Shown here one piece after another: positions 37,861-41,796 of a stretch of DNA of 64,000 nucleotides; within the stretch, counting starts at the first letter, position 1, and every line of letters begins with the position of its first letter. The DNA is taken from assembly GCA_964362365.1 (NCBI GenBank), contig CAYIEF010000003.1, forward strand, positions 79 to 64,078. Reading direction: 5' to 3'. The position numbers were made by a program, and so were the translations under genes. The stretch is from an uncultured Methanosarcinales archaeon (GTDB taxonomy: Archaea > Nanobdellota > Nanobdellia > Woesearchaeales > GW2011-AR9). The notes beneath the pieces are model-generated. The model worked only from the letters and a program-made list of their open reading frames with translations. It made no database searches and was not told the DNA's origin.

Positions 37861-38169
37861 ATGAAAATTCCTAAGACTATCAAGCGGTTCTGCAGATATT
37901 GCAGAAAGCATACTGAACAGAAAGTCGCTCAAAACAAGAAGAAAGCTCCTAGTTCCTTAAGCCGAGGTTCAAAATATCGAGCCAGATTACGAGGAGCTGC
38001 CAGAGGCACTGGAAATTTAGGAAGATACTCAAAACCAGCAGTTACTAAATTCAAGCGTACCGGAGCAAAAAATACCAAAAAAACTGATTTACGCTATACT
38101 TGTTCGGTTTGCAAGAAAACAAGCTCGCAAAGCAAAGGCATGAGAGCCAAAAAAGTGGAGCTGGTATAA
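37861..38169 (+). CDS. rpl44e: ribosomal protein L44e
   Basis: C4 ribbon (CRYCRKH...CSVCKK) and KKTDLRY motif. Confidence 0.8.
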   Translation: MKIPKTIKRFCRYCRKHTEQKVAQNKKKAPSSLSRGSKYRARLRGAARGTGNLGRYSKPAVTKFKRTGAKNTKKTDLRYTCSVCKKTSSQSKGMRAKKVELV

Positions 38170-38170
38170 A

Positions 38171-38359
38171 ATGAATGGCACAATCCCAAGTCCAAAAAGC
38201 AAATTTATCAAAGTTCGCTGCGCCAAATGTAAGAACGAACAGATCATCTTTGGCAATGCTTCTAATACTGTATTATGTTTAGTGTGCAGCAAAGAAGTGG
38301 CTTACCCTACTGGTGGGAAAGCAAAGATTTCTGCACGGGTGTTGGAAGTGCTGGAATAG
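38171..38359 (+). CDS. rps27e: ribosomal protein S27e
   Basis: FIKVRCAKCKNEQIIFGNASNTVLCLVCSK zinc ribbon. Confidence 0.85.
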   Translation: MNGTIPSPKSKFIKVRCAKCKNEQIIFGNASNTVLCLVCSKEVAYPTGGKAKISARVLEVLE

Positions 38360-38383
38360 AGAAGTGTTTACGGAGGAATAAAA

Positions 38384-39232
38384 ATGTCATTAGAAACAAT
38401 CACTGGAAATTTGAAAGATGCGTACAAACAATTGCAGCCAGGCACCATGCTGCACGTTGATGAATTGATGAACGAACGCCGGACAAATGAAGAATTACGC
38501 AGTAATGGCTTTTATACTCCCGATGGAGAAGTGTACTTTCTTTATGGCGTTAATAAAACTCCAATTCTGGCCATGACCAGAGAAGCTCGAAATCCAGTTC
38601 TTAAAAATATTGATGATGCTTTTGAACAGTTGACTACAAAGGGAAATTATGGTGTACAGGGAAAAGATTTCACGAAAGCCATTACTGATGCAGTACTTGT
38701 ATTCTTGCCTAACCTACGATTATCAAAACATGATGCAGAATTTCAATATCTTCCTTTCGGAACAACTCCTGCCAAATACAGTAAATTGAACGATGAAGAA
38801 CGAAAGTTCGCCGAACGTGTCTATGGCCAAGGAGATGATTTTGTCAAGAACATGAAAATGTTGAAAGAGGCAGGCATTGGTGAAACTCGGATTTGGGTTC
38901 TGAATCCAGATTACGTTCGAAAACATGCAGCCGAAGGCGCGATTGCGCGGGCCTCTTGGCTTGACAATTTCTATTATGGATCGCAATTCAATGCCGGTGA
39001 TCGTGATATCAGTAACGACGGCCGCGTCCGTGGGGTACGTCGGGAGGTCGTCGCCGAAGGCGGCGCGCAAAAAAATAAAGGTCCTTATCGCACTGCAGCA
39101 AAAAATGGTTTCGTAACTCATTACGATGCGATTCTTGCTGATCCAGAAGGCGCAGTTAAAGCCATGAATGATAAAACTGCTGCTGGCCTTTCAAGGCTTC
39201 TTTCCAGTTATTTATCTACTCGAGGACAATAA
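38384..39232 (+). CDS. DGR variable (target) protein; the VR lies at 38943-39037 near the C-terminus
   Basis: The 95-nt VR matches the TR at 39442-39536 except at 14 positions, all TR adenines. A GC hairpin (CGCCGAAGGCGGCG) follows the VR. The C-terminal region SWLDNFYYGSQFNAGDRDISNDGRVRGV is C-type-lectin-like. Confidence 0.85.
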   Translation: MSLETITGNLKDAYKQLQPGTMLHVDELMNERRTNEELRSNGFYTPDGEVYFLYGVNKTPILAMTREARNPVLKNIDDAFEQLTTKGNYGVQGKDFTKAITDAVLVFLPNLRLSKHDAEFQYLPFGTTPAKYSKLNDEERKFAERVYGQGDDFVKNMKMLKEAGIGETRIWVLNPDYVRKHAAEGAIARASWLDNFYYGSQFNAGDRDISNDGRVRGVRREVVAEGGAQKNKGPYRTAAKNGFVTHYDAILADPEGAVKAMNDKTAAGLSRLLSSYLSTRGQ

Positions 39233-39441
39233 TCTTCTTAAATTTTGTTTTTCTTCTCTTTTTGTCTCAGCACTTCCCTCCTCGGGAAGCTGGACTACAC
39301 GCTCTTATGCCAAGGCTTAAGGCGACTGGCTATAAAACCATCAGATTGGACATGTTCTAATTTGATAAGACAGCTGCGACACCTAGCTTACGAGTTATCG
39401 TGAAGCGGCAGAGAAGTGCACGGCATTAAGAGCTACTCACG

Positions 39442-39536
39442 TTGCGCGGGCCTCTTGGCTTAACAATTTCAATAATGAATCACAATTCAATGCCAATGAT
39501 CGTAATATCAATAACAACAACCGCGTCCGTGGAATA
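39442..39536 (+). repeat. DGR template repeat (TR)
   Basis: Adenine-containing AAY-codon-rich copy of the VR. Located 30 nt upstream of the RT gene. Confidence 0.85.
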
Positions 39537-39566
39537 GCCCAGTATAGTGCTGAGATTTTTTCTTAT

Positions 39567-40796
39567 ATGGCAGCACCTCGCGACTTGTGGAAGGAACTTT
39601 GCAGCCTGAAGAACCTTGAGATAGCTTTTAAGAATGCGCGCAAAGGAAAGACATTGAAGCCATATGTTATTGAATTTGAACAGCGCCTAAAAGAAAATCT
39701 TCAGCAGCTGAGAACAGAGCTTCTCCTTCATTGCTATAAGCCTAAACCCTTGCAAACGTTCATTCTCCGTGATCCAAAGACTCGGAAGATCAGCAAATCG
39801 CATTTTCGTGACAGAATAATTCATCATGCTCTATGTAATATTATCGAACCGCTGTTTGAAAAAAGTTTCATTTCTTTCCTGGGTCTGATACCCCGCTGCT
39901 CGCAGCGACATCGAATTGTAAACCGATGACCAGGAAAGATTAAAAATACCCCGCAGCTTGCTGCGGTTGGGATTTTTATTTACGATTCCTATGCTAACCG
40001 GAAGACCAAAGGGACATTGAAAGCAATTCAGCGTTTTGAGCATTTTACAGAGAAAATATCTAGGAACTTTATTCAACCAACATTAGTTCTGAAGGCAGAT
40101 GTCAGGAAGTATTTTGACCATGTTGACCACGTAATTTTACTGTCAATATTGAGAAGAAAGATAAAAGATCATAAAATAATCTGGCTGGTGAAGGCAATTC
40201 TATCCAACTATTCAACCGCAAATGGAAAAGGTATGCCCTTAGGAAATCTCACTTCTCAATTTTTCGCCAATGTGTATCTGAATGAGTTGGATCAATTCGT
40301 GAAAAAAGAACTGAAAGCAAAACAGTATATTAGATACGTTGATGATTTTGTGATTGTTCACAATTCAGAAGAAATGCTTCATAGTTATAAAGAAAAAATA
40401 GATGGTTTTCTTGCTAGGAGTTTAGCTTTAACGTTACATCCAGATAAATCAAGAATCATCAAAGTACATCATGGGGTTGAATTCTTAGGAGTGAAAATTT
40501 TTTGTTATCACAAATTGATCAAAAAGAAAAATTTACGAAAATGTAAGAAAAAATTTTCTGATTTATGCTCAAAATACAAAGAAAAAAAAGCGCAGTACGA
40601 TCAAATCTATGATTTTCTGGAAGGTTGGAACGCATATGTACATAATTCAAATACATATAAGTTCAAGAAAAGAATGATGCAAACAGTAGAAGAGACATTT
40701 CCTCACGAAATCTCAGCCAAAGAAGTGGATAGATTGCGAAAACATTCAAAAAAGAGAAGCGATTCTTTCACTCTTTCTTCTCCAACACATTTATAA
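39567..40796 (+). CDS. DGR reverse transcriptase, interrupted by an in-frame TGA within a ~105-bp palindrome-containing insertion
   Basis: RT motifs 1-2 (YKPKPLQTFILRDPKTRKISKSHFRDRIIHHAL), 3 (ADVRKYFDHVDH), 4 with the DGR-type SQ (GMPLGNLTSQFFANVYLNELD) and 5 (RYVDDFVI). The same frame continues through TGA at 39927-39929. Confidence 0.8.
39873..39980. repeat. in-frame MITE-like insertion inside the RT gene carrying two GC palindromes (CCCCGCTGCTCGCAGCG and CCCCGCAGCTTGCTGCGG)
   Basis: Extra ~36 codons between RT motifs 2 and 3 relative to typical RT spacing. Flanked by FI/FI codon duplication. Same palindrome family as 22282-22373. Confidence 0.5.
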
Positions 40797-40818
40797 ATAA
40801 AACTTCAACTTAAAAGCT

Positions 40819-41598
40819 ATGTTCTACAAAAGGAAAGGATACCCGGAAGAAGAAGAGATCGTGCTCTGTAAAGTAAGCAAGATCTTTCCCAACTCCGTCT
40901 TCGTTGAACTGTTGGAATACGGCGAACAAGGGTTAGTCCACATTTCTGAGATCGCTCCGGGAAGGATCCGTAATTTGCGGGATTATGTGGTTGAGGGAAA
41001 GCAGATTGTCTGTAAGGTTCTGAGGATCGATCGTTCTAAAGGCCACATCGATCTGTCCTTGAGAAGAGTAAGCTCTCACCAGCGCCAAGCAAAATTGGAT
41101 GAAATAAAACAGGAATTAACTGCAGAAACGCTGATCCAGAATATGGCTAAGCGGATGCAAAAGCCAGCCGAAGAATTATATAAGCAGGTTACGGAAAAAA
41201 TATTCAAAGAATATTCTCATCTCTTTCTTTGTTTCAAGGAAGTAGCGGCAGGTGAAGCTAGCCTGGAAAAACTTGGACTGGAAAAGAAGTTATCAGAGAA
41301 TCTAACTGCAGCCATCATAGACCGATTCAAGCCTTCTAAAATAACTGTTAAAGGCGAAATCAAGATCCATTCTTATGCTTCGGATGGTGTAGAAAAGATT
41401 AAGGCTGTTTTATTGGAAGTAGAAAGAATCTCGCCTACTATCCATGTCTTTTACTTAGGCGGGGGCAGATTTAAAGTGAGCATCGAAGATATCGATTACA
41501 AGCCGGCAGAGCAGACTATGCGCAAAGTGCAGGAAGTACTAGAGAAGTTTAACGATAAAGTTTCCACTGCAGTGTTTGAACGAGAGAAAAGCGAATAA
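40819..41598 (+). CDS. eif2a: translation initiation factor 2 alpha subunit (aIF2-alpha)
   Basis: N-terminal S1 domain (YPEEEEIVLCKVSKIF...GLVHISEIAPGRIRN). Helical and alpha-beta domains follow. Confidence 0.85.
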   Translation: MFYKRKGYPEEEEIVLCKVSKIFPNSVFVELLEYGEQGLVHISEIAPGRIRNLRDYVVEGKQIVCKVLRIDRSKGHIDLSLRRVSSHQRQAKLDEIKQELTAETLIQNMAKRMQKPAEELYKQVTEKIFKEYSHLFLCFKEVAAGEASLEKLGLEKKLSENLTAAIIDRFKPSKITVKGEIKIHSYASDGVEKIKAVLLEVERISPTIHVFYLGGGRFKVSIEDIDYKPAEQTMRKVQEVLEKFNDKVSTAVFEREKSE

Positions 41599-41616
41599 AT
41601 TCATGGTTATAAGAAA

Positions 41617-41796
41617 ATGGCCGAGCATATTCGAAAGTGTGTTGATGATCAACGTTATACCCTTGAACAAAAATGTCCATCTTGCGGAAAGGAAACCATT
41701 CTGCCCCGGCCGCCTAAATTTTCTCTTGAAGACAAGTACGCTTCCTTACGCCGTGAATCAAAGAAAGATGAATTAAAAGGGAAAGGTTTTTTCTGA
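41617..41796 (+). CDS. nop10: H/ACA RNP subunit Nop10
   Basis: MAEHIRKCVDDQRYTLEQKCPSCGKETILPRPPKFSLEDKY. Conserved pairing with aIF2-alpha. Not in the ORF track (59 aa). Confidence 0.75.
   Translation: MAEHIRKCVDDQRYTLEQKCPSCGKETILPRPPKFSLEDKYASLRRESKKDELKGKGFF

What the first reader, a model, noticed from the sequence alone, without database searches (positions are those of the whole stretch)
37861..41796. DGR cassette inserted inside the conserved rpl44e-rps27e / aIF2alpha-nop10 ribosomal cluster
L44e (37861-38169) and S27e (38171-38359) are normally followed directly by aIF2-alpha and Nop10 in archaea. Here the target gene, TR and RT (38384-40796) sit exactly between them on the same strand. 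The retroelement is therefore co-transcribed with, or insulated within, an essential translation operon.
Basis: partly seen in the sequence, partly recalled or inferred. Interest (0 to 1): 0.55.

Follow-up and report, generated by a model that had tools for sequence, protein, structure and literature searches.

The report
Broken DGR splitting an archaeal ribosomal cluster
A protein-diversifying retroelement (DGR) really does sit between ribosomal protein S27e and initiation factor aIF2-alpha in this groundwater nanoarchaeon, but it is an ordinary DPANN-type DGR in a lineage-specific insertion hotspot, and a tiny transposon has broken its reverse transcriptase gene.

Summary
L44e, S27e, a 282-aa target gene, VR, TR, a reverse transcriptase (RT), aIF2-alpha and Nop10 lie on one strand in that order. 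VR and TR differ at 12 of 91 positions, and all 12 are TR adenines. The RT's best solved relative is the Bordetella phage BPP-1 DGR RT. The target model matches only AvpA, the Nanoarchaeota C-type-lectin variable protein.

Synteny supports an insertion. S27e abuts aIF2-alpha in 4 close and 14 distant relatives. Three related lineages carry the DGR at this exact site. Two others carry the target plus a ParE toxin-antitoxin pair instead of TR-RT, so the spacer is a hotspot for accessory genes.

- The RT is interrupted at about 39872-39979 by a 108-nt IS200/IS605-type miniature element with an in-frame TGA. The cassette is probably inactive in cis.
- An RT-11 structured RNA (Rfam RF03106) lies upstream of TR, and there is no Avd gene.
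- aIF2-alpha keeps its own TATA-like box, which is also present in empty sites.
- The target gene has no TATA box of its own and looks like a third cistron of the L44e-S27e unit.

Verdict: a new member of a known kind, of modest interest.

The parts
37830..37837 (+). TATA-like box (TTTAAATA) 31 nt upstream of the L44e ATG. Inferred promoter of the L44e-S27e(-target) unit.
   Evidence: Pattern scan. Function is inferred only.
37861..38169 (+). Ribosomal protein L44e gene
   Evidence: Pfam Ribosomal_L44, E 1e-11. 91-97% identical to the orthologues in L001, L003, L004, L007 and L024.
38171..38359 (+). Ribosomal protein S27e gene
   Evidence: Pfam Ribosomal_S27e, E 6e-22.
38384..39232 (+). DGR target (variable protein) gene, 282 aa. 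It starts 24 nt after the S27e stop and has GGAGG at 38372-38376. AvpA-like C-type-lectin fold plus a C-terminal helical tail.
   Evidence: AlphaFold model with pLDDT 89.9. The only significant PDB fold match is 5ioo_A, AvpA (E 1e-6, TM 0.72). 146 homologues, all in Nanoarchaeota/Woesearchaeota-type sources.
38943..39033 (+). Variable repeat (VR), codons about 187-217 of the target
   Evidence: 91-nt repeat of TR. 12 mismatches, all at TR adenines.
39049..39067 (+). GC-rich hairpin with a GAA(G) loop just downstream of VR, the kind of hairpin DGRs use for target recognition
   Evidence: DNA fold. Same position with covarying stems in L024, L025 and L033. A trinucleotide-loop hairpin is described for Nanoarchaeota DGRs in PMC4372165.
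39244..39263 (+). T-rich stretch (two T5 runs) after the target stop. Inferred archaeal terminator of the L44e-S27e-target unit.
   Evidence: Conserved in L024 and L033. Function is inferred only.
39271..39413 (+). RT-11 structured RNA motif (Rfam RF03106) immediately upstream of TR
   Evidence: cmscan 117.8 bits, E 2e-26, model positions 1-147 of 147. Below the gathering score of 143.5, but the homologous element in L025 scores 158.7 and in L046 161.1. The region is 81% conserved over 4 loci, with compensatory stem changes.
39442..39532 (+). Template repeat (TR), 29 adenines in 91 nt
   Evidence: Near-identical TRs in L024, L025 and L027.
39567..40796 (+). DGR reverse transcriptase gene, interrupted. 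Its stop codon lies inside the aIF2-alpha TATA-like box.
   Evidence: Best PDB sequence match is 8ub7_A (E 3e-44), which is BPP-1 brt. LGNLTSQ and YVDD motifs are visible.
39872..39979 (+). 108-nt IS200/IS605-type miniature element inserted in the RT gene. Boundary is ambiguous by up to 3 nt. In-frame TGA at 39927-39929.
   Evidence: Absent from all RT homologues. Its two hairpins (ATACCCCGCWGCTYGCWGCG at 39888 and 39946) are the same hairpins that flank a Y1_Tnp transposase gene in L039.
40790..40799 (+). TATA-like box (TTTATAAATA) 29 nt upstream of the aIF2-alpha ATG
   Evidence: Conserved in empty sites (L001, L004, L007, L008) and filled sites (L003, L024, L044). Function is inferred only.
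40819..41598 (+). aIF2-alpha gene
   Evidence: Pfam EIF_2_alpha, E 8e-19, plus S1.
41617..41796 (+). Nop10 gene
   Evidence: Pfam Nop10p, E 2e-18.
22270..22389 (-). Second copy of the two-hairpin IS200/IS605-type miniature element, in an intergenic region
   Evidence: The outer stem covaries with the copy in the RT gene.

Best explanation
This is a chromosomal DPANN-type DGR. Its order is an AvpA-like C-type-lectin target gene with a C-terminal VR, an RT-11 structured RNA, TR, and then the RT. It has no Avd gene. It was inserted into the short spacer between S27e and aIF2-alpha of the archaeal LSIN cluster in an ancestor of a narrow clade of groundwater Nanoarchaeota/Woesearchaeota.

When intact it would work like other DGRs. 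The TR-containing RNA is reverse-transcribed with misincorporation at adenines, and the cDNA replaces VR. This diversifies about 12-16 codons (AAY-type codons in the TR) in the ligand-binding face of the target protein.

Three features of this copy matter:
(a) The target gene follows S27e by 24 nt. It has a Shine-Dalgarno-like motif but no TATA box, so it is most likely transcribed as the third cistron of the L44e-S27e unit and terminated at the T-runs at 39244-39263.
(b) aIF2-alpha-Nop10 keeps the same TATA-like promoter box that empty-site relatives have, so the essential downstream genes are insulated from the insertion.
(c) The RT gene has since been disrupted by a 108-nt IS200/IS605-derived miniature element with an in-frame stop. 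This copy therefore cannot diversify on its own. VR records past activity.

The same spacer holds other cargo in sister genomes (target plus ParE toxin-antitoxin pair, or toxin-antitoxin pair plus target). It is a lineage-specific hotspot for accessory genes.

Shown: gene identities, adenine-specific VR/TR differences, the RT clade, the target fold, RT-11, the insertion polymorphism, and the interruption with its IS200/IS605 affiliation.
Inferred: the transcription units, the loss of activity, and the order of events.
For: DGR identity:
- 12 of 12 VR/TR mismatches fall on TR adenines (P = 1.6e-7).
- The RT's best solved relative is BPP-1 bRT (E 3e-44), against about 1e-21 for group II intron RTs.
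- The target model's only significant fold hit is AvpA, 5ioo_A.
- A GC-rich hairpin with a GAA loop follows VR.
- RT-11 is present. It is present in every RT-bearing relative and absent where TR-RT is absent.

Insertion:
- Empty S27e|aIF2-alpha sites in L001, L004, L007 and L008 and in 14 distant loci.
- The same filled site, with an identical left junction, in L024. L044 is also filled.
- Only 2 of 80 metagenomic RT relatives lie next to aIF2-alpha.
- Related DGRs sit in other contexts: L025, L027 and L045.

Hotspot and decay:
- L033/L034 have target then DUF7557-ParE. L003 has DUF7557-ParE then target.
- L033 retains the first ~50 nt after the target stop, including the 5' stub of RT-11. It is the sister of the window in the aIF2-alpha tree.

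Transcription units:
- TATA-like boxes occur only before L44e and aIF2-alpha.
- The aIF2-alpha box is conserved in empty sites.
- Targets in other contexts have their own TATA boxes.

RT interruption. Affiliation of the insert with IS200/IS605.
Against: - No transcript data. The promoter and terminator assignments rest on motif inspection only.
- A trans-acting RT elsewhere in the genome cannot be excluded. Relatives do have remote targets (L035 and L037 on one contig). None lies in this 64-kb window.
- Whether the patchy distribution reflects one gain with several losses or several gains is unresolved. The single-gene NJ tree is weakly resolved, and L044 does not group with the window/L024 clade.
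- RT-11 scores below Rfam's gathering threshold in the window itself.
Confidence: 0.8

Rival explanations
1. The cassette is still a working DGR. Either the 108-nt element is removed, or another RT elsewhere in the genome supplies the activity in trans. Removal is mechanistically plausible because IS200/IS605 elements excise precisely as single-stranded DNA when TnpA is supplied. In that case the insertion would act at most as a reversible off-switch.
For: - IS200/IS605 elements excise seamlessly. This is established knowledge of the family and was not tested here.
- The insert is in frame and exactly 108 nt.
- This DGR clade uses remote targets: two targets for one RT on one contig.
- Orphan targets in L030 and L033 are heavily diversified at TR-adenine positions, 16-18 of 29.
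Against: - No tnpA and no second RT or TR in the 64-kb window.
- The two independent assemblies of this strain both carry the insert and an identical VR.
- There is no evidence of any mixed allele.
Confidence: 0.15
2. There was no insertion into an operon. In this lineage the DGR, or at least the target gene, is ancestral at this position, and the 'empty' relatives are secondary deletions. The event to explain would then be repeated loss rather than gain.
For: - Filled and empty sites are interspersed on the aIF2-alpha tree.
- L033 clearly shows secondary loss of TR-RT.
- A short T-rich motif (TTTCTTCTC) occurs after the target stop, before the aIF2-alpha promoter box, and in empty sites. It could mediate deletion.
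Against: - The outgroups are all empty: L008 (64% aIF2-alpha identity) and 14 distant Woesearchaeota. In several of these S27e and aIF2-alpha are only 2-8 nt apart. An insertion must have happened at the base of the clade or within it.
- The LSIN cluster is contiguous across Archaea (PMC2643942).
- 78 of 80 RT relatives are elsewhere.
Confidence: 0.25
3. The 108-nt interruption of the RT is an archaeal bulge-helix-bulge intron or another RNA-level intervening sequence, so the mature mRNA encodes an intact RT.
For: - The insert is structured (z = -2.8).
- It is in frame.
- Archaeal splicing endonuclease is present in archaea generally. One tRNA in the window carries an intron: tRNA-Asn is 91 nt.
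Against: - A second copy lies in an intergenic region.
- The same hairpins are the left-end and right-end hairpins of a TnpA-encoding IS200-type element and of another two-hairpin miniature element (L040).
- No canonical bulge-helix-bulge motif at the junctions was evident on inspection.
- Homologous RT genes have no insert.
Confidence: 0.03

Closest known systems
Nanoarchaeota (DUSEL4) and groundwater DPANN DGRs with AvpA-type variable proteins (Paul et al. 2015, PMC4372165; Handa et al. 2016, PMC5006420)
   Same: - Chromosomal archaeal DGR.
- Adenine-specific TR/VR differences.
[quoted passage not shown]
- GC-rich hairpin with a trinucleotide loop downstream of VR.
- Orphan and remote targets, and DGR fragments, are common.
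   Different: - Only 13% sequence identity to AvpA, and not detectable by sequence search.
- Extra C-terminal three-helix tail.
- No Avd-like ORF between target and RT.
- Located inside the LSIN cluster.
- RT interrupted by a miniature insertion element.
Bordetella phage BPP-1 DGR (mtd-avd-TR-brt), the prototype
   Same: - The RT is the closest solved relative (E 3e-44), with the shared motif (I/L)GxxxSQ.
- VR lies at the 3' part of a C-type-lectin-fold target.
- Adenine mutagenesis.
- A structured RNA is needed next to TR.
   Different: - No Avd gene.
- The conserved structured RNA (RT-11) is upstream of TR. In BPP-1 the RT-10 motif lies between TR and brt (PMC5737381).
- Cellular and archaeal, not phage-borne.
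LSIN cluster (L44E-S27E-aIF2alpha-Nop10) of Archaea (Berthon et al. 2008, PMC2643942)
   Same: Same four genes, same order and same strand. Relatives have S27e and aIF2-alpha 2-85 nt apart.
   Different: Here 2.46 kb of accessory DNA separates S27e from aIF2-alpha. In this lineage a TATA-like box precedes aIF2-alpha even in empty sites.
IS200/IS605-family insertion sequences and their miniature derivatives (palindrome-associated transposable elements)
   Same: - Subterminal hairpins at both ends in the same orientation.
- No terminal inverted repeats.
- No clear target duplication.
- Left flank is a TTNAT-like pentanucleotide in four copies.
- Identical hairpins flank a Y1_Tnp gene in L039.
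   Different: - Only 108 nt long, with no transposase.
- No tnpA was seen in this window.
- The full-length reference copy lies on an unrelated contig (IMG/VR UViG 2534682207_000010). The host relationship was not examined.
RT-11 / RT-16 RNA motifs (Weinberg et al. 2017, PMC5737381; Rfam RF03106, RF03019)
   Same: Full-length match with the consensus structure. Located next to an RT gene, as the family is defined.
   Different: The paper left the function open and tied only RT-10 to a DGR. Here RT-11 lies 28 nt upstream of a bona fide TR and is lost together with TR-RT. The window copy scores below the gathering threshold.

Membership tests
Diversity-generating retroelement (DGR) | TR/VR repeat pair whose differences are confined to adenines of the TR | tested here: met
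   91-nt pair with 12 mismatches: 12 of 29 A positions, 0 of 62 non-A positions. P = 1.6e-7.
Diversity-generating retroelement (DGR) | Reverse transcriptase of the DGR clade adjacent to TR | tested here: met
   The repaired ORF matches BPP-1 bRT best (8ub7_A, E 3e-44), against group II intron RTs at about 1e-21. LGNLTSQ and YVDD motifs are present. The gene as it stands is interrupted by a stop-bearing insert.
Diversity-generating retroelement (DGR) | VR in the C-terminal part of a target ORF with a variation-tolerant (C-type-lectin or Ig) fold | tested here: met
   VR covers codons about 187-217 of 282. Model pLDDT 89.9. Sole fold hit is AvpA, 5ioo_A (E 1e-6, TM 0.72).
Diversity-generating retroelement (DGR) | IMH-type GC-rich 3' end of VR followed by a hairpin | tested here: met
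   The shared repeat ends in the GC-rich CCGCGTCCGTGG. It is followed in VR by GG and by a GC hairpin with a GAA(G) loop at 39049-39067. The stems covary in L024, L025 and L033. The function was not tested.
Diversity-generating retroelement (DGR) | Accessory protein (Avd or HRDC) | tested here: not met
   No credible ORF between target and RT. The 50-52-aa ORFs there overlap RT-11, and their frames are broken by indels in relatives. This feature is not universal in archaeal DGRs.
Diversity-generating retroelement (DGR) | Ongoing mutagenic retrohoming | not testable with these tools
   Needs read-level VR heterogeneity or an experiment. The two consensus assemblies have identical VRs.
LSIN cluster (L44E-S27E-aIF2alpha-Nop10) | The four genes in this order on one strand, contiguous | tested here: not met
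   Order and strand are kept, but contiguity is broken by 2.46 kb between S27e and aIF2-alpha. It is contiguous in 18 related loci.
IS200/IS605-derived miniature element | Left-end and right-end subterminal hairpins matching those of a Y1-transposase-encoding element, with no terminal inverted repeats | tested here: met
   The right hairpin is identical over 21 of 21 nt. The left hairpin has a compensatory stem flip. These hairpins flank a Y1_Tnp gene (E 4e-35) in L039.
IS200/IS605-derived miniature element | Insertion 3' of a short conserved target sequence without target duplication | tested here: inconclusive
   The left flanks of 4 copies read TTCAT, TTGAT, TTAAT and TTAAT. Boundaries are uncertain by 1-3 nt, because ATT is repeated at both ends of the RT copy.
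IS200/IS605-derived miniature element | Cognate TnpA in the same genome | not testable with these tools
   None in the 64-kb window. The rest of the genome is not available.
RT-11 RNA (Rfam RF03106) | Match to the covariance model at or above the gathering score | tested here: inconclusive
   Window copy: 117.8 bits against a gathering score of 143.5, but E 2e-26, full length, and with one non-canonical pair. The orthologous elements in L025 (158.7) and L046 (161.1) pass.

The most novel reading that the evidence does not exclude
The S27e|aIF2-alpha spacer of this nanoarchaeal clade is a preferred landing pad. There a DGR variable-protein gene has been wired into a ribosomal-protein transcription unit, so that expression of a hypervariable ligand-binding protein is coupled to ribosome synthesis. 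The TR-RT 'engine' is modular and expendable. It can be swapped for ParE toxin-antitoxin modules, or switched off, perhaps reversibly, by a precisely excising IS200/IS605 miniature element, while targets continue to be serviced in trans.
Probability: 0.12. Interest if true: 0.5.

Novelty: new member of a known kind. Interest (0 to 1): 0.33.

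Why it matters
It documents, with empty-site and alternative-cargo relatives, that one of the most conserved archaeal gene clusters can be split by a retroelement without displacing the downstream promoter.

It gives a clean natural series of DGR decay: an intact cassette, an RT broken by a miniature insertion element, TR-RT replaced by a toxin-antitoxin pair, and an orphan target.

It ties the orphan Rfam motif RT-11 (and the related RT-16) to the TR-RT module of Avd-less archaeal DGRs. This is a testable lead for how these DGRs prime cDNA synthesis.

None of this changes the current picture of what DGRs are.

Tried and rejected
1. Bulge-helix-bulge intron or programmed recoding as the explanation for the in-frame 108-nt insert. 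Rejected for three reasons. A second copy is intergenic. The hairpins are the ends of an IS200-type element. TGA is used as a normal stop: Nop10 ends in TGA.

2. A mini-CRISPR array (two 20-nt repeats 58 nt apart). Rejected for the same reason.

3. An Avd-like ORF between target and RT. The 50-52-aa ORFs overlap the RT-11 RNA and are not frame-conserved.

4. Sequence-level search of the PDB with the target profile. It gave only spurious hits to a designed repeat protein, 4D2. The fold search was needed to find AvpA.

5. Pfam and NCBIfam on the target and on the three small ORFs between PTH2 and L44e gave nothing significant.

6. The sigma-70 promoter and intrinsic-terminator scanner was not used, because the organism is archaeal. 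A simple scan for TATA boxes and T-runs was used instead.

7. A general association between DGRs and toxin-antitoxin pairs. None of the 80 metagenomic RT loci had a DUF7557 or ParE hit. The association is limited to a few close relatives.

8. A second RT, TR or target in the window. None found.

Full report
**1. What is in the sequence**

- PTH2, 36599-36943.
- L44e, 37861-38169.
- S27e, 38171-38359.
- A 282-aa ORF with no family match, 38384-39232.
- A reverse transcriptase (RT), 39567-40796.
- aIF2-alpha, 40819-41598.
- Nop10, 41617-41796.

A 91-nt direct repeat links 38943-39033, inside the 282-aa ORF, to 39442-39532, just upstream of the RT. The two copies differ at 12 positions. Every one is an adenine in the downstream copy and a G or T in the upstream copy (12 of 29 A positions, 0 of 62 others). 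Chance would give this pattern with P = 1.6e-7. This is the signature of a DGR template repeat (TR) and variable repeat (VR).

**2. The parts of the retroelement**

*Reverse transcriptase.* Once the interruption described below is removed in silico, the RT matches RVT_1. Its best solved relative is chain 8ub7_A at E 3e-44, far ahead of group II intron RTs at about 1e-21. A tblastn search shows that 8ub7_A is the brt gene of Bordetella phage BPP-1, the prototype DGR. The alignments show the LGNLTSQ and YVDD motifs.

*Target protein.* It has 146 homologues, all from Nanoarchaeota/Woesearchaeota-type sources. Their alignment is conserved except at defined positions of RASWLxxFxxxSxFxAxxRxIxxxxRVRGVRR. 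An AlphaFold model built on that alignment is confident (pLDDT 89.9). [quoted passage not shown] 2016, PMC5006420). Sequence search alone did not find AvpA.

*Hairpin after VR.* A GC-rich hairpin with a GAA(G) loop lies at 39049-39067. It recurs with different but still complementary stems in relatives. This matches the trinucleotide-loop hairpin described for Nanoarchaeota DGRs (PMC4372165).

*Structured RNA upstream of TR.* Between the target stop and TR there is no credible ORF. There is instead a 143-nt element at 39271-39413 that matches the Rfam family RT-11 over its full length (117.8 bits, E 2e-26).
- The window copy is below the curated threshold of 143.5 bits. The orthologous elements in L025 (158.7 bits) and L046 (161.1 bits) are above it.
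- The region is 81% identical across four loci, with compensatory stem changes.
- RT-11 is present in every relative that has TR-RT and absent where TR-RT is missing.
- The wider RT clade mostly carries the related RT-16 motif in the same place (13 of 20 loci).
- Weinberg et al. 2017 (PMC5737381) described these motifs as RT-associated with unknown role and tied only RT-10 to a DGR.

**3. The RT gene is broken**

The RT reading frame holds an in-frame TGA at 39927-39929. Alignment with 15 homologues shows a 36-codon insert found in none of them. The close relative L002/L024 reads ...AGCTTCATC|TACGATTCC... across the empty site.

The insert, at about 39872-39979, contains two copies of a 20-nt hairpin motif 58 nt apart. 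A second two-hairpin element lies in an intergenic region at about 22270-22389 on the other strand. Its enclosing stem has a different sequence but is still complementary.

An exact-match scan of viral contigs found the same hairpin in four contigs:
- In L039 two copies flank a 156-aa ORF that is an IS200-type Y1 transposase (Pfam Y1_Tnp, E 4e-35).
- In L040 a two-hairpin miniature element has almost the same right end, GGGATTTTTATT.

The left flanks of the four copies read TTCAT, TTGAT, TTAAT and TTAAT. The insert is therefore a transposase-less IS200/IS605-type miniature element.

No tnpA, second RT, second TR or second target is present in the window. An independent contig from the Hainich H51 groundwater sample (L029) is identical to window 37841-44050 at 6209 of 6210 positions and includes the insert. 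The interruption is therefore real and not a local assembly error. As it stands the gene encodes a 120-aa N-terminal fragment, so the cassette should be inactive in cis.

**4. Is it an insertion? Synteny**

Berthon et al. [quoted passage not shown]

A scan of one genome per species with the window's aIF2-alpha returned 22 archaeal loci. tblastn mapping and junction sequences show the following:
- S27e is directly followed by aIF2-alpha in four close relatives: L001, L004 and L007 (aIF2-alpha 89-93% identical) and L008 (64%).
- The same is true in 14 more distant Woesearchaeota. In several of them the gap is only 2-8 nt.

The same filled arrangement occurs in L024/L002/L043. This is a second strain in the same sample, 80-89% identical at the nucleotide level, with an intact 371-aa RT and an identical left junction. 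It also occurs in L044, from another metagenome.

Of 80 metagenomic relatives of the RT, only those two are next to aIF2-alpha. Other close DGRs sit beside TRM1/aIF5B (L025 and L027) or upstream of aIF2-gamma (L045).

The cassette is an insertion relative to the ancestral cluster.

**5. The spacer is a hotspot, and the cassette decays**

- L033/L034 are the window's nearest relatives on an aIF2-alpha tree (92% nucleotide identity). They have S27e, then the target, then a DUF7557-ParE toxin-antitoxin pair, then aIF2-alpha. The first ~50 nt after the target stop, including the 5' stub of RT-11, are retained. TR-RT was therefore replaced secondarily.
- L003 has S27e, then DUF7557-ParE, then the target, then aIF2-alpha.
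- L005 and L006 have unrelated sequence just upstream of the aIF2-alpha promoter box.
- Orphan VRs in L030 and L033 differ from the TR consensus at 16-18 of the 29 adenine positions.
- One relative has two targets 9 kb apart served by one TR-RT. Trans-diversification is therefore plausible in this clade.
- Filled and empty sites are interspersed on the weakly resolved single-gene tree. The number of gains and losses is open.

**6. How it is wired (inference from sequence)**

On the + strand of 37500-41900, strong TATA-like boxes occur only 31 nt upstream of the L44e ATG and 29 nt upstream of the aIF2-alpha ATG. The aIF2-alpha box, with its flank (CCAAACATTTATAAATAAAAC), is conserved in empty and filled sites alike. 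The RT ORF simply runs into it and stops at the TAA inside the box.

The target gene starts 24 nt after the S27e stop, behind GGAGG, with no TATA box. Target genes in other genomic contexts have their own TATA boxes. Two T5 runs follow the target stop.

The most economical reading has three parts:
- L44e-S27e-target is one transcription unit.
- The RT-11-TR-RT module lies between that unit's terminator and the next promoter.
- aIF2-alpha-Nop10 is an independently promoted unit.

On this reading the essential downstream genes are insulated. Only the variable-protein gene rides on the ribosomal-protein promoter. No transcript data were available to test this.

**7. Comparison with what is known, and verdict**

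Everything about the element itself fits the DPANN/Nanoarchaeota DGRs described by Paul et al. 2015 and Handa et al. 2016, and the RT-associated RNA motifs of Weinberg et al. 2017.

Three things are new here:
- The location inside the LSIN cluster.
- The documented polymorphism series at that site.
- The disruption of the RT by an IS200/IS605 miniature element.

A useful by-product is the consistent linkage of RT-11/RT-16 to the TR-RT module of Avd-less archaeal DGRs.

This is a new member of a known kind. It is a tidy example of accessory-gene turnover in a compact DPANN genome, not a new mechanism. Interest is modest, about 0.33.

Noticed in passing
window 39872-39979 (+) and about 22270-22389 (-); L039 2850-3475; L040 about 5030-5160; L012 about 1210-1231: A family of IS200/IS605-type elements defined by the hairpin ATACCCCGCAGCTTGCTGCGG. 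It includes two transposase-less two-hairpin miniatures in the window (one inside the RT gene) and a full copy with a Y1 transposase in an IMG/VR contig. The same hairpin sequence is shared between a nanoarchaeal genome and unrelated viral-binned contigs.
   Followed up: partly
window 39271-39413; L025 5870-6014; L046 1394-1540; RT-16 in 13 of 20 loci among L044-L063: The Rfam motifs RT-11 and RT-16, whose function is unassigned in the original paper, lie immediately upstream of the TR in this large clade of Avd-less archaeal DGRs. They are lost together with TR-RT. They are candidates for the priming or scaffold RNA of these DGRs.
   Followed up: partly
window 36944-37860: PTH2 and L44e are about 70-110 nt apart in L001 and L004. 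In the window they are separated by about 920 nt holding three small ORFs: 82 aa and 76 aa on +, 52 aa on -. None has a significant family match (a GNAT hint at E 0.09 only). This is a second accessory insertion next to the same cluster, possibly a degraded toxin-antitoxin-like module.
   Followed up: partly
L003 6468-6982; L033 1744-2255; L025/L037 4404-4921: DUF7557-ParE toxin-antitoxin pairs recur next to this DGR target family in three different arrangements: before the target, after the target in place of TR-RT, and before a complete DGR elsewhere in the genome. None was found among the 80 more distant RT loci.
   Followed up: partly
L045 67-1197 and 1217-2581: A related DGR RT (71% identity) in the same groundwater sample sits directly upstream of aIF2-gamma. 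Its stop codon is again inside a TTTATAAATA box 27 nt before the ATG. This may only reflect compact genomes and AT-rich promoters supplying the first stop codon.
   Followed up: no
L030 4959-6891; L035 3863-6392: Orphan or remote copies of the target gene follow other informational genes in the same orientation with short gaps: rpoF(Rpb4)-DUF655 in L030, and RNA 3'-phosphate cyclase upstream of aEF-1beta in L035. Whether this exceeds chance in these gene-dense genomes was not tested.
   Followed up: no
window 44011-44946 (-): A 311-aa ORF with a helix-turn-helix region and a sub-threshold rve integrase core (E 6e-7, 30.2 bits against a cut-off of 32.6). It is probably an IS481-like or other DDE transposase, about 2 kb downstream of the cluster. 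L033 aligns to the window on both sides of about 43990-45590 but not across it, so the stretch is absent there.
   Followed up: no
window 46553-46643: tRNA-Asn(GTT) is 91 nt long, which implies an archaeal tRNA intron.
   Followed up: no
L001, L003, L005, L006, L008 (record titles): Several MAG records that carry this Nanoarchaeota/Woesearchaeota-type locus are titled 'uncultured Methanosarcinales archaeon'. This is probably a taxonomy label error in the TPA assemblies.
   Followed up: no
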